Origin: a virus
Virus genome (UHGV): UHGV-0378502
Strand: one strand, 5' to 3'
DNA length: 22,376 nt
The notes under the pieces were generated by a model, which ran no database searches, was not told where the DNA came from, and saw only the letters and a list, made by a program, of their open reading frames with translations. The translations under genes were made by a program, and so were the position numbers. This document shows positions 1,414 to 8,753 of this stretch, one piece after another. Position 1 is the first letter of the stretch. Each line of letters begins with the position of its first letter.

Positions 1414-2052
1414 TTAAATATCTTGTTGAATTTTAAAGCATACGCCCAATATGCAAGATAGATCATCCAGCATAATTGAAGGGTAGCGAGGATTCGTGGG
1501 GACTAAAAGAATATCCGGCCCTTCTATCTCCAGTTTACGAATGACAGGTGTTGTGGTCCCTTTGGGTAAGGCAAGGACAATATTTCCTGGTTGTACGGTT
1601 CGATCGGGATCAACAAAAACTGTTGAACCATTTGGGATGGAAACTCCCCCACCAGATGTTGACATACTGTCACTCTCTAGAACAACTGCAAAGGTATTGA
1701 CCGGGATTTCTCCGACAAGCTGCACACAAGAGGTTATTGAGGAATTTTTCATATAATCACTCCAGCTTGCTGCCTGCTGAAGTGATAGTAGCGGAACCGT
1801 TTTTATCGGCGGTAAAGATAGATCAAGCGAATCACCTGTATTTAACTCTCCTCCATTAAGAAGCCAATTTTCGTTTACTTTCAATATTTTTGCCAGTGAA
1901 CTTATGTAACGCGAGGACGGCGCTCCTCCACCGTTCATCCATTGACTTACGGAGCCTTTTGATGCGCCAGTGCCATTGACAAGGTCTTTGCCTTTCAGGT
2001 TTAGCGCATGCATACGTTGGGTTATGCGTTCAGATATAGTTTGCTTGCTCAT
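1414..2052 (-). CDS. cI: Prophage repressor, cI-like (N-terminal HTH plus C-terminal LexA/S24 autopeptidase domain)
   Basis: 212-aa product with an HTH-like N-terminus and a C-terminal domain carrying the Ser (ESDSM) and Lys (VIRKL) of the S24 catalytic dyad; divergent from a cro-like gene across a 90-bp operator region; no Shine-Dalgarno before the ATG (leaderless-type, as for lambda pRM transcripts). Confidence 0.9.
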   Translation of the reverse strand: MSKQTISERITQRMHALNLKGKDLVNGTGASKGSVSQWMNGGGAPSSRYISSLAKILKVNENWLLNGGELNTGDSLDLSLPPIKTVPLLSLQQAASWSDYMKNSSITSCVQLVGEIPVNTFAVVLESDSMSTSGGGVSIPNGSTVFVDPDRTVQPGNIVLALPKGTTTPVIRKLEIEGPDILLVPTNPRYPSIMLDDLSCILGVCFKIQQDI

Positions 2053-2143
2053 GTTTTGATTTTAAAACACAGATGGTTTTGTTTCTTGACTTTCTTTGGT
2101 TTTGATTATTAAACTTTTGACGTTCAGTTTTATGGAGCGACTC
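2051..2143. promoter_or_regulatory. Divergent cI/cro operator-promoter region with three direct repeats
   Basis: Three copies of a TGGTTTTGnTT-like motif at about 2051-2062, 2073-2084 and 2097-2108 (22-24 bp spacing). Rightward -35 TTGACT (2086-2091) with a weak -10 (TATTAA/TTAAAC); leftward TAAAAT hexamer 6 nt before the cI ATG on the minus strand. Inference from sequence patterns. Confidence 0.45.
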
Positions 2144-2386
2144 ATGAAAAAATCAGAAGTATTAGGCTATTTTGGCGGAGTTGTTAAAACAGCCGCAGCT
2201 CTAGGAACGTCAAAAACCACAGTCAGCATGTGGGGGGAAGAGGTTCCGTGGAAATGGGCGTTGCTAATTCAGGCAGTCACTGCCGGGGCGCTCAAATATG
2301 AGTTACACATACCGACGGTTGTCATTCCCGGTTCTGATCATAATCCGCCTTCTAACCAAGGAGGGATTCATGAAAATCAAGCATGA
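2144..2386 (+). CDS. Cro-like HTH regulator, YdaS family-like
   Basis: Small HTH protein (MKKSEVLGYFGGVVKTAAALGTSKTTVSMWG...) divergent from cI at the Cro position. Start chosen at ATG 2144; the track ORF begins at 2096 and 2132 is another in-frame ATG. The 3' end overlaps the next gene. Confidence 0.7.
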   Translation: MKKSEVLGYFGGVVKTAAALGTSKTTVSMWGEEVPWKWALLIQAVTAGALKYELHIPTVVIPGSDHNPPSNQGGIHENQA

Positions 2387-2866: not shown

Positions 2867-3937
2867 ATGGCTAACGCCTGGCTCAGATTATGGCATGACA
2901 TGCCAAATGACCCTAAGTGGCGAACAATTGCCAGGGTGTCAGGGCAGCCAATTGCAACAGTGATGGCAGTGTATATCCACCTCCTGGTGAGCGCGTCACG
3001 AAATGTCACGCGAGGTCACATTGATGTCACGACAGAAGATTTGGCAAGTGCGCTCGACGTGACAGAAGAGGTAATTGATTCAATTTTGCAGACGATGCAG
3101 GGGCGGGTACTTGATGGTGATTTAATCACTGGATGGGAAAAACGCCAGGTGCTGAAAGAGGACAACGGCAATATTTTGCAAACCGCAAAATCTCCGGCAG
3201 AGCGCAAGAGGGCGCAGCGAGAGAGGGAAAGAAAGCGGGAACAAAATGGCGATTGTCACGGCGAGTCACGAAATGTCACGCACATGTCACGACGAGTCAC
3301 GACAGATAAAGATACAGATAAAGATACAGATCAAGAAGATCAAAACACTATGGTCCATGGCGTAAAAAACGCCACGAACCAGGCAGGGGATGTTCAGACC
3401 GTCACTCCTGGCCAGCCCGCAGGCACGACACCGGAAGCCGATTCAGCGTATGCGCTGAAAGCCGATTCGGGCGCTGTGCAGCAGGTGATGACCGCAAGGC
3501 AGGAGCAATCACACCAACTTCAGCAGCCTGAAGCCGATTCCGCCATTCAGCGGGAAGCCGATCGGGTAGTCCCGGAAAACACCGGGCAGCCTGTGGGACG
3601 AGTGGATTATCCTGATGTGTTCGAACAGGTCTGGCGGGAATACCCGTTGCGTGCCGGGGCAAACCCGAAGAAATCCGCTTTCAGTGCCTGGAAAGCCAGA
3701 TTACGCGAGGGGGTGCCACCAGAGGCCATGCTGGATGGCGTGAGGCGTTACGCAAGATACCTTGCGGCTACCGGGAAAACGGGAACGGAATTTGTTCAGC
3801 GAGCGACGACGTTTTTTGGACCGGACCGGAATTTTGAAAACCCCTGGCTGCTCCCGGTAAGCGGCACGAACAACCAGCGTTGTGTGAATCATATTTCTGA
3901 ACCGGATAACGAAATTCCGCCGGGCTTCAGGGGGTAA
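2867..3937 (+). CDS. Phage replication initiator (replisome-organizer / O-like protein) containing internal iterons
   Basis: ATG 2867 with GAGG upstream. The N-terminus (MANAWLRLWHDMPNDPKWRTIAR...) resembles the phage replisome-organizer N-terminal domain; an acidic low-complexity linker (DKDTDKDTDQEDQ) separates it from a C-terminal domain; position is immediately downstream of the cro/cII-like genes. Family assignment from memory. Confidence 0.75.
   Translation: MANAWLRLWHDMPNDPKWRTIARVSGQPIATVMAVYIHLLVSASRNVTRGHIDVTTEDLASALDVTEEVIDSILQTMQGRVLDGDLITGWEKRQVLKEDNGNILQTAKSPAERKRAQRERERKREQNGDCHGESRNVTHMSRRVTTDKDTDKDTDQEDQNTMVHGVKNATNQAGDVQTVTPGQPAGTTPEADSAYALKADSGAVQQVMTARQEQSHQLQQPEADSAIQREADRVVPENTGQPVGRVDYPDVFEQVWREYPLRAGANPKKSAFSAWKARLREGVPPEAMLDGVRRYARYLAATGKTGTEFVQRATTFFGPDRNFENPWLLPVSGTNNQRCVNHISEPDNEIPPGFRG
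2995..3031 (+). repeat. Iteron cluster 1 inside the initiator gene (4 x GTCACG at about 10-bp phasing)
   Basis: GTCACG/GTCACA at 2995, 3005, 3015 and 3026 (spacing 10, 10, 11), with an inverted CGTGAC copy near 3058. Confidence 0.7.
3255..3345 (+). repeat. Iteron cluster 2 (5 x GTCACG at helical phasing) plus adjacent AT-rich tandem repeat; candidate origin of replication
   Basis: GTCACG at 3255, 3265, 3275, 3286 and 3296 (spacing 10, 10, 11, 10), followed by gataaagataca x2 and an A-rich stretch (3302-3345). The arrangement is analogous to ori-lambda lying inside gene O. Confidence 0.65.
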
Positions 3938-3977
3938 GTGTTAATTTCTGGTCATGAGGTAATTTTCAGGAGGGCTT

Positions 3978-4400
3978 GTGGCAAAAGTTTTTACACAAGA
4001 AGAGCGGGAAAAAATTAAAGGACAGGTTCTTGAACTCGTACGCCAGAGTGGGCGCGAGACGTTACGACAACTGGAAGCTAAAACTGGGGCAACAAGATAT
4101 CTGATGAGCGTTCTGGCCAGAGAGCTGGTTGCCAGTGGCGATGTATACAATTCTGGCTACGGGTTATTCCCGTCTGAACAGGCTCGTAAAGACTGGCAAA
4201 ATGCCCGCAAAAAATTATCGAGGGCAAAGCTGAAGAAACCGGTTGTGGTTGATCCGGACCTTATCTGGTCGTTACCTGACGGAGAAATACGTCGCTACGA
4301 CAGTCGCCTAAACATAATCTGTCGCGAGTGCCGGAAGAGTGAAGCTATGCAGCGTGTACTGGCTTTCTATCAGGGTAATTTTCAGGAGGCGGTACTGTGA
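3978..4400 (+). CDS. Hypothetical protein (140 aa)
   Basis: GTG start at 3978 preceded by AGGAGGG (3967-3973); ORF follows the initiator gene; no recognisable family. Confidence 0.55.
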   Translation: MAKVFTQEEREKIKGQVLELVRQSGRETLRQLEAKTGATRYLMSVLARELVASGDVYNSGYGLFPSEQARKDWQNARKKLSRAKLKKPVVVDPDLIWSLPDGEIRRYDSRLNIICRECRKSEAMQRVLAFYQGNFQEAVL

Positions 4401-4457
4401 GTGAAATTAGCTATCAGGCTTCAATTACCGCTGGCATTCGCATCAAAGGAGAGGAGC

Positions 4458-4814
4458 ATGGAAATAAAACCAGAGGATGAGTTAAGCAATATCGTTTTAT
4501 TTCCGGTAAAAGAGGATGACCCTCGTAATCAGGTTAATTTTCTTTATGAGCCATCGGAAAGACCATATTGTCATCACGCCTCTGTCCGGGTTGACGAAAA
4601 AGAGCGTCAGGTCCGCTGTAAAATCTGCGGTGCAGTTGTGGAGCCATTTGACTGGATGCTCTCTGTGGCGAAAAGAGAAACCAGACTGGCAGATGATGTA
4701 AGGCTCTTGCGTCAGGAGGAGCGGGAAAGGCGAAAAAATATAGAAAAGCTAATTCAGATTGAGCGTAACGCGAAAGCGCGGATACGCAGGGCGACAAAAT
4801 CCAGAACTGAATAA
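4458..4814 (+). CDS. Hypothetical protein with Cys/His cluster (possible zinc ribbon), 118 aa
   Basis: ATG 4458 preceded by AAGGAGAGGAG; contains CHH ... CKIC spacing suggestive of a zinc-binding motif; basic coiled C-terminus. The track ORF begins at GTG 4401. Confidence 0.55.
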   Translation: MEIKPEDELSNIVLFPVKEDDPRNQVNFLYEPSERPYCHHASVRVDEKERQVRCKICGAVVEPFDWMLSVAKRETRLADDVRLLRQEERERRKNIEKLIQIERNAKARIRRATKSRTE

Positions 4815-4878
4815 TTAAATTTAGCTCTGTTAAAAATTTAATCCTTAACCGGAGGGATTTCTGCACCCTCAGAACATC

Positions 4879-4910
4879 AGGAGGCCGCCCGAAAGGGCGG
4901 TAGTTAAATG
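4879..4910 (+). promoter_or_regulatory. Hairpin-split ribosome binding site (SD - stem-loop - AUG)
   Basis: AGGAGG at 4879-4884, then a perfect 6-bp stem with GAAA tetraloop (CCGCCC gaaa GGGCGG, 4885-4900), then ATG at 4908. Linear SD-AUG spacing is 23 nt; folding the hairpin would bring it to about 7 nt. Confidence 0.35.
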
Positions 4911-5090
4911 CGAAAGTTTAAAATAATTATTGAAACGGGAATAGCCGGTGGAGATTTCGAGGATGAATTCGAAGTGGATGATGATGCGATGCCTGATGAA
5001 ATACATGACGAAGAAAAAGATATTTTCTTTAACTACTGCAATTACTCATATCACGAAATAAAAGACGAAGAGGAAGAACAAAATGGCTGA
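4908..5090 (+). CDS. Small acidic protein (60 aa)
   Basis: ATG 4908; highly acidic product (DFEDEFEVDDDAMPDEIHDEE...); stop overlaps the next ATG (ATGGCTGA). Confidence 0.45.
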   Translation: MRKFKIIIETGIAGGDFEDEFEVDDDAMPDEIHDEEKDIFFNYCNYSYHEIKDEEEEQNG

Positions 5091-5259
5091 TTTTGGTTCA
5101 ACTAAATACAACGTCAGTTTTGAAGAATGGCATGAACTGTTAATGGACTATGCAGAGTTACGTGGTGGCAGTGCTGCTGATGCTGAAGCATGGCGTGATG
5201 ATTATGAAGCAGGAAAAACTCCGGTCGAAGCATATTGTGATGAGTGGGGCGATGAATGA
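5083..5259 (+). CDS. Small hypothetical protein (58 aa), translationally coupled
   Basis: ATG 5083 overlapping the stop of the previous ORF; product MADFGSTKYNVSFEEWHELLMDYAELRGGSAADAEAWRDDYEAGKTPVEAYCDEWGDE. Falls below the 60-aa cut-off of the supplied track and was found by reading the sequence. Confidence 0.45.
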   Translation: MADFGSTKYNVSFEEWHELLMDYAELRGGSAADAEAWRDDYEAGKTPVEAYCDEWGDE

Positions 5260-5314
5260 GCGAGGTTAATTATCAGGAAGGGCATGAAACGGCGGGGCAA
5301 GCAAAAACAGTGGC

Positions 5315-5572
5315 ATGGCGATATCGCTACGTGAAAAAAAAGGCGTTACGGACTTTCAGGGGAAGTAGTGGTCTGGTGACTGGAAATATGTACCGAAAAA
5401 AGAGGATTGTAACGACAGGCCGAACTATGAAATTCAGGCCTTATTCACTGCCCCGCCAGTCCCGGTTACATCAGAAGAACTGGTTAAAGCTGTGCACTTT
5501 TATGAACAACTAAAACGCGAAAATCCACCAGCATCCGGAAACCTGATTACAGATTCCCAGATAAGGCAATGA
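5315..5572 (+). pseudogene. Interrupted ORF: protein-like reading frame broken by a single in-frame TAG (5366-5368); alternatively read via the overlapping frame-0 ORF 5256..5513
   Basis: Frame beginning at ATG 5315 reads MAISLREKKGVTDFQGK-[TAG]-WSGDWKYVPKKEDCNDRPNYEIQALFTAPPVPVTSEELVKAVHFYEQLKRENPPASGNLITDSQIRQ. The supplied track instead calls a very basic 85-aa ORF in another frame (5256..5513). Two A_AAA_AAG heptamers occur in the frame-0 ORF (5336-5342 and 5396-5402). Confidence 0.3.
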
Positions 5573-5742
5573 GCTACCTAGCGCAGAACGGGCTGATAAG
5601 TATGGGGAATGTTTTACGATGAATATTTAGACTAAAGAGTTTGTAACGCTATGTAAGTGATTTTTTCTGGTTTAGATATTTATATGTCCGGCCAAATTGA
5701 GGTGTGTTTAAATGTAATTGCACATTGATTGTAGGAGGAATA

Positions 5743-5922
5743 ATGAAAAACGCATTGCAGTTTTTGTTTGTTGCGTTTTGGTTGTTCGTATCATGTATGC
5801 CCATCATCTTCACAGCAAGGTATATGGAAAAAGTTGATGTTTTGATATTAATATTTGGATATATAAATGCCCTTTTTTTAGGGGTGTTCATGGCGGTCAT
5901 GTGCATTGAATACTGGCGGTAA
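5743..5922 (+). CDS. Small hydrophobic membrane protein (59 aa, two predicted TM segments)
   Basis: ATG 5743 preceded by AGGAGGA (5733-5739); product MKNALQFLFVAFWLFVSCMPIIFTARYMEKVDVLILIFGYINALFLGVFMAVMCIEYWR; very AT-rich surroundings (5580-5950). Confidence 0.5.
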   Translation: MKNALQFLFVAFWLFVSCMPIIFTARYMEKVDVLILIFGYINALFLGVFMAVMCIEYWR

Positions 5923-6180
5923 ATACAGCGAACGCCATTGGTTTAGTTGGATATTTACTGTGCCGGACAAAAACGGTTTGCGGGGAAATCTTAGTTAAGT
6001 AGAATGACTGCGGGTGCTTGAGGCTATCTGTCTCAGGCATGAACACCAAAAGGCAGATAGAGAAAAGCCCCAGTTAACATTACGCGTCCTGCAAGACGCT
6101 TAACATTAATCTGAGGCCATATCTATGCGACACATAGAGATTAGCCTCTTACGGACCGAAAGGTCAAGGAGAAGCAGGCT

Positions 6181-6336
6181 ATGAAGCAGCAAAAGGCGAT
6201 GTTAATCGCCCTGATCGTCATCTGTTTAACCGTCATAGTGACGGCACTGGTAACGAGGAAAGACCTCTGCGAGGTACGAATCCGAACCGGCCAGACGGAG
6301 GTCGCTGTCTTCACAGCTTACGAACCTGAGGAGTAA
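6181..6336 (+). CDS. hokD: Hok-family type I toxin (HokD/RelF-like, 51 aa)
   Basis: Product MKQQKAMLIALIVICLTVIVTALVTRKDLCEVRIRTGQTEVAVFTAYEPEE matches my recollection of HokD/RelF; long structured leader upstream and a GC hairpin plus T-run downstream, as expected for hok mRNAs. Confidence 0.85.
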   Translation: MKQQKAMLIALIVICLTVIVTALVTRKDLCEVRIRTGQTEVAVFTAYEPEE

Positions 6337-6406
6337 GAGACCTGGCGGGGGAGAAATCCCTCGCCACCTCTGATGTGTCAGGCATCCTCAACGCACCCGC
6401 ACTTAA

Positions 6407-6431
6407 CCCGCTTCGGCGGGTTTTGTTTTTT
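6407..6431 (+). terminator. Intrinsic terminator at the 3' end of the hok transcript
   Basis: CCCGC ttcg GCGGG stem-loop (6407-6420) followed by TTTTGTTTTTT. Confidence 0.6.
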
Positions 6432-6503
6432 CCTGGCATTCTGGTTTACAATTCGCACGTCAGCCTGAACACCTGACACCTGCTGCGCCAGCAGAGAAAA
6501 CAG

Positions 6504-6776
6504 ATGGCGCACAAAACCAAATTTCACAATTCTGATACCGACCTTGCCATCCGGCATGAGCGGCGTTCACACGCATTTAAAACCGACTGGTACCAACACC
6601 CACCATGTACTGAAGAACAGGCCGAATGGCTGATTCATTCTTACCGCAGGCGCGGGTTCGAGGTTAAGAAAGCTCTCAGTCTCGACTATCGGCACTGGAT
6701 AATCTCTGTCAGGCTGCCTTATTCCGAACGCCCACCACGTCCGTCCCGCACTTTCCAGCAACGGATCTGGAGGTAA
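6504..6776 (+). CDS. Hypothetical protein (90 aa)
   Basis: ATG 6504; stop immediately followed by a GGAGG RBS and the start of the next gene; no recognisable family. Confidence 0.5.
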   Translation: MAHKTKFHNSDTDLAIRHERRSHAFKTDWYQHPPCTEEQAEWLIHSYRRRGFEVKKALSLDYRHWIISVRLPYSERPPRPSRTFQQRIWR

Positions 6777-6777
6777 C

Positions 6778-7836
6778 GTGCGGGTATTACTTAGACCTGT
6801 TCTGGTGCCTGAGCTTGGGCTGGTGGTCCTTAAGCCGGGCCGTGAATCCATACAGATATTTCATAATCCTCGAGTGCTGGTGGAGCCGGAACCGAAAAGC
6901 ATGTGCGGCCTGCCATCCGGAGTCGTCCCTGCCGTTCGCCAGCCGCTGGCGGAGGATAAATCATTACTGCCATTTTTCAGCAATGAGCGTGTGATTCGTG
7001 CTGCTGGCGGCGCTGGTGCACTGTCTGACTGGCTGTTGCGCCATATTAAATCCTGCCAGTGGCCACACGGTGATTATCACCACAGTGAAACCGTCATTCA
7101 CCGTTATGGTACCGGCGCAATGGTGTTGTGCTGGCACTGCGACAACCAGTTGTGTGACCAGACCTCAGAATCACTTGAGCAACTTGCTCACCAAAACTTG
7201 TCAGCATGGATGATTGACGTCATCCGTCACGCAATCAGCGGTACGCAGGAGAGGGAGTTATCGCTGGCCGAATTATCCTGGTGGGCGGTCTGCAATCAGG
7301 TGGCTGATGCGCTTCCGGAGTCTGTATTGTGTCGTTCACTGGGATTACCGGTGGAAAAAATCCGCTCCGTATACCGTGAGAGTGACATCGTACCGGGAGA
7401 ACAGACTGCCACCAGCATACTGAAGCAGCGCACAAAAAATATTGCGCTGCCACTTCACGTCCACCAGCAACAGCCCCCACTCCAGGAAAAGACGTTAGTA
7501 AGCATCGCCGTTGATCCGGAGTCTCCGGCTCAGTATCTCCAGCGCCAGAAACCACGACGGGAAGAGATGCCTGTATACACGCGCTGGGTAAAAACGCAGA
7601 AATGCATGACGTGTGGTAATCAGGCAGATGATCCGCATCACATCATTGGTCATGGACTGGGAGGGATGGGAACAAAGGCTGATGATTTGTTTGTTATTCC
7701 GCTGTGCCGTAAATGCCATAGCGAACTACACGCCGGGGTAAAAGATTTTGAAGAAAAACACGGCAGCCAGCTGTTGTTGCTGATTCGTTTTTTAATGCAC
7801 GCGAGAAATTCGGGTGTCCTGAAGTGGAAAGCATGA
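6778..7836 (+). CDS. DUF968-like prophage protein with C-terminal HNH-like zinc-finger motif (YdfU-like)
   Basis: GTG 6778 with GGAGG 5 nt upstream; C-terminal CMTCGN ... DPHHIIGHGLGG ... CRKCHSELH (CxxC ... HH ... CxxCH); stop abuts the rusA start. Family assignment from memory of Qin-prophage YdfU. Confidence 0.65.
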   Translation: MRVLLRPVLVPELGLVVLKPGRESIQIFHNPRVLVEPEPKSMCGLPSGVVPAVRQPLAEDKSLLPFFSNERVIRAAGGAGALSDWLLRHIKSCQWPHGDYHHSETVIHRYGTGAMVLCWHCDNQLCDQTSESLEQLAHQNLSAWMIDVIRHAISGTQERELSLAELSWWAVCNQVADALPESVLCRSLGLPVEKIRSVYRESDIVPGEQTATSILKQRTKNIALPLHVHQQQPPLQEKTLVSIAVDPESPAQYLQRQKPRREEMPVYTRWVKTQKCMTCGNQADDPHHIIGHGLGGMGTKADDLFVIPLCRKCHSELHAGVKDFEEKHGSQLLLLIRFLMHARNSGVLKWKA

Positions 7837-8202
7837 ATGACTGAACGCATAGAATTTGTTTTGCCTTACCCGCCAACGGTGAACACTTACTGGCGACGTC
7901 GTGGCAGCACATATTTTGTATCAAAAGCCGGTGAGCGTTATCGCCGTGATGTGGCGCTTATTGTTCGCCAGCAGCGGCTGAAATTAAACCTGTCCGGAAG
8001 GCTGGCGATAAAGATTATTGCAGAGCCACCGGATAAACGTCGTCGTGACCTGGACAATATCCTGAAAGCACCACTGGATGCGCTGACGCATGCCGGACTT
8101 CTCATAGACGACGAGCAGTTTGATGAAATCAATATTGTGCGCGGTCAGCGCGTTCCTGGGGGGCGGCTGGGCGTGAAGATTTACAAAATTGAGAGTGAGT
8201 GA
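7837..8202 (+). CDS. rusA: Holliday-junction resolvase RusA
   Basis: 121-aa product with RusA hallmarks (PPTVNTYW near the N-terminus, RRDLDN acidic catalytic region); typical nin-region position just upstream of the Q-like gene. Confidence 0.9.
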   Translation: MTERIEFVLPYPPTVNTYWRRRGSTYFVSKAGERYRRDVALIVRQQRLKLNLSGRLAIKIIAEPPDKRRRDLDNILKAPLDALTHAGLLIDDEQFDEINIVRGQRVPGGRLGVKIYKIESE

Positions 8203-8210
8203 TCGTAAAT

Positions 8211-8753
8211 ATGATATACCCGGAAATTACAGGCAAAAGCGGCGAGCATTTACGTCTAAAAACGCTGGAAGCCGTCTGGATCCAGGGGAAATTACGGATG
8301 TGGGGGCGTTGGTCGTATATAGGTGGTGGCAAACCAGGAAATATGTTCAATCAGTTGCTGGCATCCAAAAAACTGACAAAAACCGCAATCAATGAAGCCC
8401 TGCGTAGAATCAGGGAGTCAGGGATTGATAAACCAGAGCTGGAAGCATTCTTGCGAGAGATGATCGCTGGCAGACAGAAGAGCTGGTTGTCTCACTGTAC
8501 TGATGCAGAGGCGTTACGCATTGATGGGGTGATAAGTAAAGCGCTTGCACGTTATCCTGGATTGATTGATATCCTGCGGCAAAGGTACGAAGGGCGGGGG
8601 ATGAGTAAACGCAAAATGGCTGAATTGTTGAATGAGGTGCACCCGGAATGGTGTTTTAGTACATGCGAAAAGCGAATTGCTAATTGGTTGGCTGTTGCTG
8701 AATATGCGCTATACATCCCTATGCGAGAATCGTTTGCTCAAAAAATGTCTTGA
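8211..8753 (+). CDS. Putative late-gene antiterminator (Q-like)
   Basis: Positional: follows rusA and precedes a promoter-like element plus a strong intrinsic terminator and the late genes. Contains an LRMWGRWSY segment reminiscent of the WG-W motif I recall in 21-type Q proteins. Start could be GTG 8199 (overlapping the rusA stop) or ATG 8211. Confidence 0.5.
   Translation: MIYPEITGKSGEHLRLKTLEAVWIQGKLRMWGRWSYIGGGKPGNMFNQLLASKKLTKTAINEALRRIRESGIDKPELEAFLREMIAGRQKSWLSHCTDAEALRIDGVISKALARYPGLIDILRQRYEGRGMSKRKMAELLNEVHPEWCFSTCEKRIANWLAVAEYALYIPMRESFAQKMS

What the first reader, a model, noticed from the sequence alone, without database searches (positions are those of the whole stretch)
5990..6431. 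hok/sok-type type I toxin-antitoxin locus inside the nin-like region
The 51-aa ORF 6181..6336 is a Hok-family toxin, preceded by a long leader and followed by a terminator hairpin (6407-6431), consistent with the fold-back hok mRNA architecture. A short upstream ORF (6125..6184) overlaps the hok start in the position where mok is normally found, but it is much shorter than canonical mok, so translational coupling here may be degenerate or atypical. On a prophage this module may act in stabilisation or phage exclusion.
Basis: partly seen in the sequence, partly recalled or inferred. Interest (0 to 1): 0.45.

Follow-up and report, generated by a model that had tools for sequence, protein, structure and literature searches.

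The report
Intact hokD-type hok/sok toxin–antitoxin locus
This is a complete copy of the well-known hok/sok toxin–antisense-RNA module (the hokD/hokW type common in E. coli prophages); its unusually short upstream reading frame is a widespread allele that should still switch the toxin on, so the finding is correct but ordinary.

Summary
ORF 6181..6336 is a Hok/Gef toxin (Pfam E 1.2e-23) with the same protein accession as E. coli K-12 HokD/RelF. The 169-nt leader matches the Rfam hok-leader model full length (106.7 bits). A terminator lies at 6405-6431.

All regulatory elements of the plasmid R1 paradigm can be located: tac, ucb, mok SD and AUG, dcb, hok SD, 3' protective hairpin, fbi, and an antisense Sok unit. 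Folding reproduces the closed full-length and open truncated conformations. 25 related loci support the structure by covariation.

The short upstream ORF is real: 19 codons, with its UGA overlapping the hok AUG. A 2-nt shortening of the hairpin loop after the mok AUG causes it. Mok-to-hok spacings of 56, 57 and 58 nt all occur in nature, and the window's exact junction is in about 780 E. coli records. R1 mutagenesis shows mok need only be translated up to the hok start, so coupling is atypical in geometry, probably not degenerate.

The locus lies between replication genes and Q in a lambdoid prophage. Expression and toxicity were not testable. Already known; low interest.

The parts
5978..6005 (+). 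Probable hok promoter: -10 TAGAAT at 6000-6005, and a weak tentative -35 TTGCGG at 5978-5983 with a 16-nt spacer.
   Evidence: TAGAAT ends 6 nt before the G at 6012 where the Rfam leader model begins. GTTAAGTAGAAT is invariant in the window, 933W and Rac442. The consensus scan at its thresholds did not call it. Assignment is by position and homology only.
6012..6431 (+). Full-length hok mRNA (about 420 nt).
   Evidence: Rfam RF01794 starts at 6012 and the terminator ends at 6431. MFE -175.1 kcal/mol, z -8.4. On 25 related loci, 88.8% of cells are paired against 38-45% in the slid controls, and 29 pairs change on both sides against 8-14.
6012..6023 (+). tac element (GGGTGCTTGAGG). It pairs with fbi in the full-length RNA and with ucb in the truncated RNA.
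   Evidence: Helix 1 is 95.3% paired across 25 loci, with a GC->AU compensatory pair in 4 sequences. Entropy is 0 across 65 distinct phage-borne loci.
6065..6071 (+). ucb / anti-SD (AAGCCCC). It sequesters the mok SD in the full-length fold and pairs with tac in the truncated fold.
   Evidence: Comparison of the folds. The model is as summarised for R1 in PMC9841398.
6063..6131 (-). Sok antisense RNA (about 69 nt): a single-stranded 5' tail GUCGCAU..., a long hairpin and a UUUU tail.
   Evidence: Maps onto the annotated sokW of 933W (L002 1597..1667) through alignment A1. Fold -29.8 kcal/mol, z -5.7. The transcript itself was not observed.
6138..6167 (-). Probable sok promoter: -35 TTGACC (6167..6162), 18-nt spacer, -10 TAATCT (6143..6138), +1 near 6131.
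   Evidence: Read from the sequence. It is positionally homologous to the sokW region of 933W, where I read TTGCCT-17-TAACCT. Mutating the sokW -10 abolished antitoxin activity in PMC8621323. The scan tool did not call it, because the -10 matches only 3 of 6.
6113..6116 (+). mok Shine-Dalgarno (GAGG), 8 nt before the mok AUG.
   Evidence: It is paired with ucb in the full-length fold and with dcb in the truncated fold. It is invariant in A2.
6125..6184 (+). mok leader ORF: 19 codons, with its stop TGA overlapping the hok ATG (ATGA).
   Evidence: Its ATG aligns with the mokW start. Spacing classes of 56, 57 and 58 nt were seen in relatives.
6123..6137 (+). Hairpin over the mok start (CUAUG-CGACA-CAUAG), targeted by the 5' tail of Sok. 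Its loop is 2 nt shorter than in 933W.
   Evidence: Helix 5 has 2 pairs with changes on both sides. Alignment A1 shows the 2-nt gap after ATGC. This is the most variable stretch of the transcript.
6144..6148 (+). dcb (GCCUC), which pairs with the mok SD region in the truncated mRNA.
   Evidence: GCCTCTT is invariant in A2.
6166..6171 (+). hok Shine-Dalgarno (AAGGAG), inside the mok ORF and overlapping the sok -35 on the other strand.
   Evidence: It is paired in helix 6 of the full-length fold.
6181..6336 (+). hok (hokD-type) toxin gene, 51 aa.
   Evidence: Pfam HOK_GEF E 1.2e-23. PGAP calls the identical sequence hokD, protein WP_000813254.1, the same accession as in the K-12-type relBE-hokD locus.
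6319..6322 (+). TACG motif at Tyr47, a TadA A-to-I editing site (Tyr->Cys) reported for hokD mRNA.
   Evidence: It is invariant in all 25 rows of A2. Editing of hokC/D/E at this aligned position is reported in PMC5630033.
6344..6365 (+). Strong 3' hairpin (GGCGGGGGAG-AAAU-CCCUCGCC), the expected 3' end protector of the processed, active mRNA.
   Evidence: Helices 16-17 are supported. The role is inferred from the R1 model in PMC9841398.
6386..6398 (+). fbi element (CCTCAACGCACCC), which pairs with tac.
6405..6431 (+). Intrinsic terminator of hok mRNA.
   Evidence: 7-bp stem with 5 GC pairs, loop of 4, then a T run.

Best explanation

Shown from sequence and structure prediction:
- A weakly promoted, roughly 420-nt hok mRNA (6012-6431) folds back on itself. 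The tac-fbi pairing forms, and ucb sequesters the mok SD, so the full-length RNA is closed.
- Removing the 3' end (fbi plus terminator) lets tac pair with ucb, and the mok SD region re-pairs with dcb. This is the open form described for R1.
- An antisense Sok RNA (6131->6063) covers the mok SD, the mok AUG and the start hairpin.

Inferred from the R1 and hokW paradigms:
- Unstable Sok binds the processed mRNA, blocks mok translation and triggers RNase III cleavage.
- When Sok supply stops, ribosomes start at the mok AUG (6125), read 19 codons through the structured hok SD (6166-6171) and terminate at the UGA that overlaps the hok AUG (AUGA).
- That opens or hands over the hok start site, Hok is made and the inner membrane is damaged.
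- The short mok is therefore a working alternative coupling geometry (termination next to the hok start), not a broken one.

Likely biological role, in order of preference:
- Help with host killing or lysis after prophage induction, as shown for hokW-sokW. Rightward early transcription from the cro side would run into the sok promoter head-on.
- Addiction-like retention of the prophage segment.
- Exclusion of other phages.
For: - Toxin identity: Pfam E 1.2e-23, and the same protein accession as K-12 HokD. Overexpressed Hok homologues including HokD induce lysis (bioRxiv 10.1101/2025.08.07.668861).
- Leader: full-length Rfam match at 106.7 bits.
- Fold-back and switch: reproduce the tac/fbi, ucb/SDmok, tac/ucb and SDmok/dcb pairings described for R1 (PMC9841398).
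- Conservation of structure: 88.8% paired against about 40% in the slid controls, and 29 against 8-14 pairs with changes on both sides.
- Sok: positional homology to the annotated sokW and a stable hairpin, z -5.7.
- Close relative shown to work: the locus is 90.8% identical to hokW/sokW of 933W/Sp5. That system acts as a TA pair dependent on the sokW promoter, RNase III and Hfq, and promotes phage release (PMC8621323).
- Short mok is sufficient: in R1, the stop codons in mok that abolish toxicity lie upstream of the hok start, and translation beyond it is unnecessary. R1 mok also has exactly 19 codons before the hok AUG.
- Allele is common: about 780 E. coli records hold the exact 75-mer 6112-6186, and 11 of 80 IMG/VR loci carry it. 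The 56-nt spacing also occurs in hokC-type loci of two other Escherichia species.
- Orientation: hok is co-directional with cro, and no + strand terminator-like site was found between cro and hok.
Against: - No transcript, processing or toxicity data exist for this allele. Everything mechanistic is transferred from R1 and hokW.
- The consensus promoter scan called neither the hok nor the sok promoter. The sok spacer is 18 nt and its -10 matches only 3 of 6.
- Chromosomal hokA, hokB and hokC loci tested earlier did not mediate post-segregational killing and were not rifampicin-activated (summarised).
- The Sok-target loop is only 5 nt here, against 7 in most relatives, which could change the binding kinetics.
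- The structure used for the covariation count came from the window's own MFE. That inflates 'cells paired', though not the counts of changes on both sides.
- Whether the carrying prophage is inducible is unknown.
Confidence: 0.85

Rival explanations
1. Silenced relic. The 2-nt loss after the mok AUG truncates mok, uncouples hok from mok and leaves a locus that looks intact but never makes toxin. It would be retained only because it hitch-hikes on a prophage module.
For: The mok ORF has 19 codons against 68-70 in relatives. Several chromosomal hok loci were reported inactive for killing. The target loop is shortened.
Against: R1 data show mok need only be read up to the hok start. Here the ribosome passes the whole hok SD and stops on the hok AUG. 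Every other element is intact and matches the family structure. The Hok coding sequence is unbroken and identical to K-12 HokD. The allele is exact in about 780 records, and the same spacing arose independently in other species.
Confidence: 0.1
2. The module is active, but its main job is regulatory architecture for the phage rather than toxin delivery. The hok terminator and the convergent sok promoter would act as a transcription barrier in the nin-equivalent region that delays Q expression.
For: The hok terminator at 6405-6431 is the only clear + strand terminator-like site found between cro and Q. The locus lies directly upstream of DUF968-RusA-Q.
Against: This rests on position only. The same module sits elsewhere in other phages: near the right end in 933W and on P1-like plasmids. 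Conservation extends over the toxin ORF and all translational control elements, which a mere terminator would not need.
Confidence: 0.05

Closest known systems
hokD (relF) of E. coli K-12, Qin prophage
   Same: The Hok protein has the same RefSeq accession, WP_000813254.1. DNA is 98.9% identical from window 6167 to 6430, covering the hok SD, CDS, 3' UTR, fbi and terminator. A DUF968 (ydfU) gene lies downstream in both.
   Different: In the K-12 type the homology stops at 6167. relB-relE sits upstream, and the promoter, tac, ucb, mok start, Sok target and most of the sok unit are absent. The window has the complete leader, so it represents the undisrupted form of this locus.
hokW / mokW / sokW of Stx2 phage 933W (= Sakai prophage Sp5)
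   Same: The DNA is 90.8% identical over 443 nt. The order of elements is the same, and the annotated sokW and mokW starts map onto 6131 and 6125. It has been shown experimentally to be a type I TA (PMC8621323).
   Different: mokW is annotated in frame with hokW (57-nt spacing, a 70-aa Mok-Hok extension), whereas the window has 56 nt and a 19-codon mok ending on the hok AUG. The window's loop is 5 nt rather than 7. Its sok -35 is TTGACC with an 18-nt spacer, against TTGCCT with 17 nt. 933W carries the module near the genome end, not in the nin region. HokW differs at the C-terminus (…FVDYESEK).
hok/sok (parB) of plasmid R1
   Same: It shares the regulatory logic and named elements: tac/fbi, ucb, dcb, a mok-dependent hok, antisense Sok over the mok start, and 3' processing. 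Both have 19 mok codons before the hok AUG.
   Different: R1 mok is 70 aa and overlaps hok out of frame, with 58-nt spacing deduced from the positions given. The Hok proteins are distant: HokW and R1 Hok share 44% identity. R1 is plasmid-borne and has proven post-segregational killing.
hok/mok of phage 'Rac' from E. coli 442/2 (MN652886) and P1-like phage-plasmids
   Same: The DNA is 94.8% identical. The GGTCAAGG form of the hok SD / sok -35 region is the same as in the window. It also lies between early genes and Q.
   Different: The spacing is 58 nt, with a 68-aa out-of-frame mok. The window differs by the 2-nt gap right after ATGC.

Membership tests
[quoted passage not shown] | A small hydrophobic Hok/Gef toxin ORF of about 50 aa | tested here: met
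   PF01848 at E 1.2e-23, 82.9 bits, covering profile 1-42 of 42. PHROG 251 at E 2.8e-33.
[quoted passage not shown] | A long structured 5' leader of hok mRNA conforming to the family covariance model | tested here: met
   RF01794 at 106.7 bits (gathering score 59), model 1-157 of 157, at 6012-6183 on the + strand.
[quoted passage not shown] | 5'-3' fold-back (tac/fbi) closing the full-length mRNA, with the mok SD sequestered by ucb | tested here: met
   MFE of 6012-6431. Helix 1 is 95.3% paired with one compensatory pair across 25 loci. This is prediction and comparative support, not probing.
[quoted passage not shown] | Refolding of the 3'-truncated mRNA into tac/ucb and SDmok/dcb stems (the active form) | tested here: met
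   The MFE of 6012-6375 shows both stems, matching the R1 description in PMC9841398. This is in silico only, and the truncation point was assumed.
[quoted passage not shown] | A mok leader ORF with its own SD whose translation runs through the hok SD | tested here: met
   GAGG at 6113-6116, ATG at 6125, 19 codons across AAGGAG at 6166-6171, and a stop at 6182-6184.
[quoted passage not shown] | A mok ORF that extensively overlaps hok (about 70 codons), as in R1 | tested here: not met
   Mok ends on the hok start codon. This feature is not required for function in R1 and is variable in the family: spacings of 56, 57 and 58 nt occur.
[quoted passage not shown] | A cis-encoded antisense Sok RNA covering the mok translation start, with its own promoter and terminator hairpin | tested here: inconclusive
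   The sequence equivalent of the annotated sokW maps to 6131->6063, with a stable hairpin plus U tail. TTGACC-18-TAATCT lies upstream. The promoter scan did not call it, and no transcript data are available.
[quoted passage not shown] | Toxicity of Hok, instability of Sok, RNase III cleavage of the duplex, and 3' exonucleolytic activation | not testable with these tools
   These are known for R1 and partly for hokW. HokD-type CDS overexpression is reported to be lytic.
hokD (RelF) orthologue group as named by NCBI PGAP | A protein identical or near-identical to K-12 HokD | tested here: met
   A 100% DNA match is annotated hokD, WP_000813254.1, and the same accession appears in the relBE-hokD locus.
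hokD (RelF) orthologue group as named by NCBI PGAP | K-12 arrangement: a leaderless hokD as the third gene after relBE | tested here: not met
   The window has the complete leader and no relBE. K-12-type loci match only from 6167 onward.

The most novel reading that the evidence does not exclude
The mok reading frame may be free to drift because only ribosome transit matters. The drift would be driven by diversification of the Sok-recognition loop, which lies in mok codons 2-4.

Length and sequence changes in that loop are the most variable stretch of the transcript. They would give each hok/sok copy its own antisense specificity, insulating up to 10 co-resident copies per genome. As a by-product they would move mok between three coupling geometries: out-of-frame overlap (58 nt), in-frame Mok-Hok extension (57 nt), and the window's termination-at-the-start-codon AUGA form (56 nt).

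On this reading the window allele is a naturally occurring minimal mok that couples by termination-reinitiation.
Probability: 0.35. Interest if true: 0.35.

Novelty: already known. Interest (0 to 1): 0.18.

Why it matters
The practical value lies in annotation and in one small mechanistic point.

**Annotation.** The sequence shows what the complete hokD locus looks like. Laboratory K-12 carries only a version cut off by relBE. About 3,800 of 5,426 complete E. coli genomes carry a near-full-length copy.

**Mechanism.** Natural alleles with 56-, 57- and 58-nt mok-hok spacing form a ready-made series for testing how leader-peptide translation activates a type I toxin. The test could be run without designing mutants.

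Neither point changes current understanding of hok/sok.

Tried and rejected
- **Promoter scan.** The consensus scan over 5850-6550 found no sigma-70 site for hok or sok at the tool's thresholds. The promoters were therefore placed only by homology and position.
- **IsrK lead.** I followed the sub-threshold Rfam isrK hit (6345-6426, 27 bits against a gathering score of 50) by fetching a Salmonella locus that matched the hok leader. It lies next to glyQS, not in Gifsy-1, and says nothing about IsrK. I dropped the lead.
- **YUNR U-turn motif.** I considered whether the shortened loop loses a YUNR motif needed for fast Sok binding. By my own reading of the junction sequences, the commonest 7-nt loop variant in IMG/VR (CUCUACA) also lacks a strict YUNR, so this is not a distinguishing defect.
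- **Same prophage as strain 4/0?** No. Only window 3875-8184 is shared, at 97.8%, and the rest is mosaic.
- **Steif & Meyer 2012, 'The hok mRNA family'.** The paper is not held. Literature searches for a description of mok frame classes found none in the held library. This is not proof that none exists.
- **Other ORFs.** The antisense ORF 6141..6314 (57 aa) has no family match and is taken as spurious.

Full report
**Observation.**
- ORF 6181..6336 encodes MKQQKAMLIALIVICLTVIVTALVTRKDLCEVRIRTGQTEVAVFTAYEPEE. It matches Pfam HOK_GEF at E 1.2e-23 and PHROG 251 at E 2.8e-33.
- Rfam RF01794 matches 6012-6183 on the + strand, over the whole model, at 106.7 bits against a gathering score of 59. The family is called 'sok', but the match is in the hok-mRNA sense and its consensus ends in the hok AUG. 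It is therefore evidence for the leader, not for the antisense RNA.
- A terminator-like stem-loop at 6405-6422 is followed by a T run to 6431.
- The upstream ORF 6125..6184 has 19 codons, and its TGA overlaps the hok ATG as ATGA.

**Identity and distribution.** The 511 bases around the locus match 4,956 of 5,426 complete E. coli genomes.
- 3,819 genomes have a place that covers at least 80% of the query. The median is 2 places per genome and the maximum is 10.
- NCBI annotates the match as hokD. A 100% match in strain 4/0 carries protein WP_000813254.1.
- The same accession is found in the K-12-type relB-relE-hokD locus.
- K-12-type loci match only from window 6167 onward. They lack the promoter, tac, ucb, the mok start and the Sok target. 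The window therefore holds the undisrupted form of hokD.
- In phages, the closest annotated relative is hokW/mokW/sokW of 933W, at 90.8% identity. A 'Rac' fragment from strain 442/2 is 94.8% identical.
- 605 plasmid records also match, mostly in non-mobilizable plasmids.

**Context.** The window carries these genes in order:
- a CI-like repressor (1414-2052, minus strand) and a Cro (2096-2386, plus strand);
- a YdaT-like protein and DUF977;
- then hok, DUF968 (6778-7836), RusA (7837-8202) and a Q-type antiterminator (8199-8753);
- then a DNA methylase and two tRNAs.

The locus therefore lies in the nin-equivalent region and points the same way as cro. Only 3875-8184 is shared (97.8%) with the prophage of strain 4/0, so the element is mosaic.

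**RNA anatomy.**
- *Full-length mRNA.* In the minimum-energy fold of 6012-6431, GGGUGCUUGAGG (tac, 6012-6023) pairs with CCUCAACGCACCC (fbi, 6386-6398). AAGCCCC (ucb, 6065-6071) pairs with the mok SD region. The energy is -175.1 kcal/mol, z -8.4.
- *Truncated mRNA.* I removed the 3' end by folding 6012-6375. Tac then pairs with ucb, and the mok SD region (6113-6117) pairs with GCCUC (dcb, 6144-6148).
- *Agreement with R1.* This is the closed-to-open switch described for plasmid R1 in PMC9841398.
- *3' protector.* A strong hairpin at 6344-6365 is placed to protect the processed 3' end.
- *Covariation.* I projected the full-length fold onto an alignment of 25 loci from Escherichia, Shigella, Kluyvera, Pseudocitrobacter and unnamed Enterobacteriaceae. 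88.8% of cells form pairs against 38-45% when partners are slid. 29 pairs show changes on both sides against 8-14.
- *Caveat.* The structure came from the window's own fold, which favours 'cells paired'. The counts of changes on both sides are less affected.

**Sok.**
- The sokW feature of 933W (L002 1597..1667, minus strand) maps through alignment A1 to window 6131->6063.
- That RNA has an unpaired 5' tail (GUCGCAU...), a long hairpin and a U tail. Its fold energy is -29.8 kcal/mol, z -5.7.
- Upstream on the minus strand lie TTGACC (6167..6162), an 18-nt spacer and TAATCT (6143..6138).
- The scan tool did not call this promoter, because the -10 has 3 of 6 matches.
- At the corresponding 933W position I read TTGCCT-17-TAACCT, which is no closer to consensus. 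The sokW promoter is functional, since mutating its -10 abolished protection (PMC8621323).
- Promoter activity in the window is inferred, not shown.

**The short mok.** Three spacings between the mok AUG and the hok AUG occur in nature.

| Spacing | Example | Consequence |
|---|---|---|
| 56 nt | the window | 19-codon mok; stop overlaps the hok ATG |
| 57 nt | 933W | annotated mokW is an in-frame N-terminal extension of HokW (70 aa) |
| 58 nt | Rac442, R1 | 68-70-aa out-of-frame overlapping mok |

- Alignment with 933W and Rac442 shows that the window lacks 2 nt directly after ATGC. The gap falls in the loop of a hairpin that contains the mok start: CUAUG-CGACA-CAUAG here, CAUG-CUGAACA-CAUG in 933W.
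- The R1 spacing is deduced from the mutated positions T117/G118 and G176.
- Across 53 loci from species-representative genomes, all three spacings occur. The 56-nt form also appears in hokC-type loci of E. ruysiae and E. whittamii.
- Among the 80 best IMG/VR loci, all encoding a HokD identical to the window's, 66 have 57 nt, 11 have the window's exact junction and 3 lack the leader.
- In complete E. coli genomes, the exact 75-mer 6112-6186 is present in about 780 records. The exact 933W-type junction is in 612 records and the exact Rac442-type junction in 42.
- The allele is therefore common, not a private lesion.
- R1 mutagenesis found that the stop codons in mok which abolish toxicity lie upstream of the hok start. 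It concluded that translation beyond the hok start is not needed.
- In the window the ribosome reads through the hok SD (6166-6171) and terminates on the hok AUG. I conclude that coupling is atypical in geometry but very probably functional. This is an inference from R1, not a measurement on this allele.

**Function.**
- R1 hok/sok kills plasmid-free segregants, and it is reported to exclude T4 (Pecota and Wood 1996, listed as reference 15).
- hokW-sokW loses Sok after mitomycin C, produces HokW in a RecA-dependent way and roughly doubles Sp5 release.
- Chromosomal hokA, hokB and hokC loci did not show post-segregational killing.
- Here hok is co-oriented with cro, and no + strand terminator-like site was found between cro and hok.
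- I therefore favour a role on induction. Rightward early transcription would oppose the sok promoter and add hok-containing RNA. This step is speculative.
- The hok terminator is also the only clear + strand terminator-like site before Q. That may matter for Q timing.

- The one R1 feature it lacks, a long overlapping mok, is variable within the family and dispensable in R1.
- The locus is annotated in RefSeq.
- Hok loci in phages and prophages were catalogued in a recent census, which deliberately left Mok unanalysed because predicting its start is not trivial (bioRxiv 10.1101/2025.08.07.668861).
- I found no description of the three mok spacing classes in the held literature. Steif and Meyer 2012 was not available.

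**Verdict.** The locus is already known and of low interest.

Noticed in passing
window 6319-6322: Hok Tyr47 is encoded by TAC followed by G (TACG), the TadA A-to-I editing motif. The motif is invariant in all 25 aligned loci. Editing of K-12 hokC/D/E mRNA at this aligned position, recoding Tyr to Cys, is reported in PMC5630033. In a local fold the motif sits in a hairpin loop, but that fold is not better than shuffles (z -0.5).
   Followed up: partly
window 6114-6135: Among 65 distinct phage-borne loci that encode a Hok identical to the window's, the stretch from the mok SD through the mok-start hairpin loop is the most variable part of the transcript. Mean column entropy is 0.55-0.82 there, against 0-0.3 over most of the rest. 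This is where the 5' tail of Sok pairs. In the two genomes with three intact hokD-type copies (E. coli ECMA0423 and S. flexneri SFBU1023), the three loops all differ. The sample is too small to distinguish this from chance. It suggests diversification of antisense specificity.
   Followed up: partly
window 6345-6426: There is a sub-threshold Rfam hit to isrK, a Salmonella Gifsy-1 sRNA (27.2 bits, gathering score 50, E 0.0018). It covers the hok 3' UTR hairpin, fbi and the terminator. It may be no more than hairpin-plus-terminator resemblance. One Salmonella locus fetched to test a link proved irrelevant.
   Followed up: partly
window 5704-5922: An AT-rich ORF of 72 aa, strongly hydrophobic, lies just upstream of the hok promoter. 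It has no Pfam or PHROG match. It is not annotated in the near-identical stretch of strain 4/0. It could be a small membrane-protein moron or a spurious ORF.
   Followed up: partly
window 6378-6557 (minus strand): A 59-aa ORF antisense to the hok fbi/terminator and to the start of the next gene is annotated 'hypothetical protein' by PGAP. It has its own PHROG family, phrog_2947 at E 1.3e-44. Because it overlaps a conserved RNA element and the 5' end of ORF 6504..6776, it may be a propagated mis-annotation.
   Followed up: no
window 6405-6431: The hok terminator is the only clear + strand terminator-like site that the scan found between cro (2096) and the Q gene (8199). The other + strand hits, at 7761 and 7942, lie inside ORFs and are weaker. 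It could act as a nin-region terminator upstream of Q.
   Followed up: no
window 1-22376 vs L001: The window shares only 3875-8184 (97.8%) with the strain 4/0 prophage, which contains a 100% match to the hok locus. The flanks are different or much more diverged. This is typical lambdoid mosaicism, with the hok-DUF968-RusA block moving as a module.
   Followed up: partly
L006 (E. coli ECMA0423, CP178302.1 1947610-1949162): In this hokD-type copy the 5' tac sequence is altered (TGACTGCATGTGGC in place of GGGTGCTTGAGGC), while fbi and the rest remain intact. It may be a copy locked in one conformation, or decaying.
   Followed up: no
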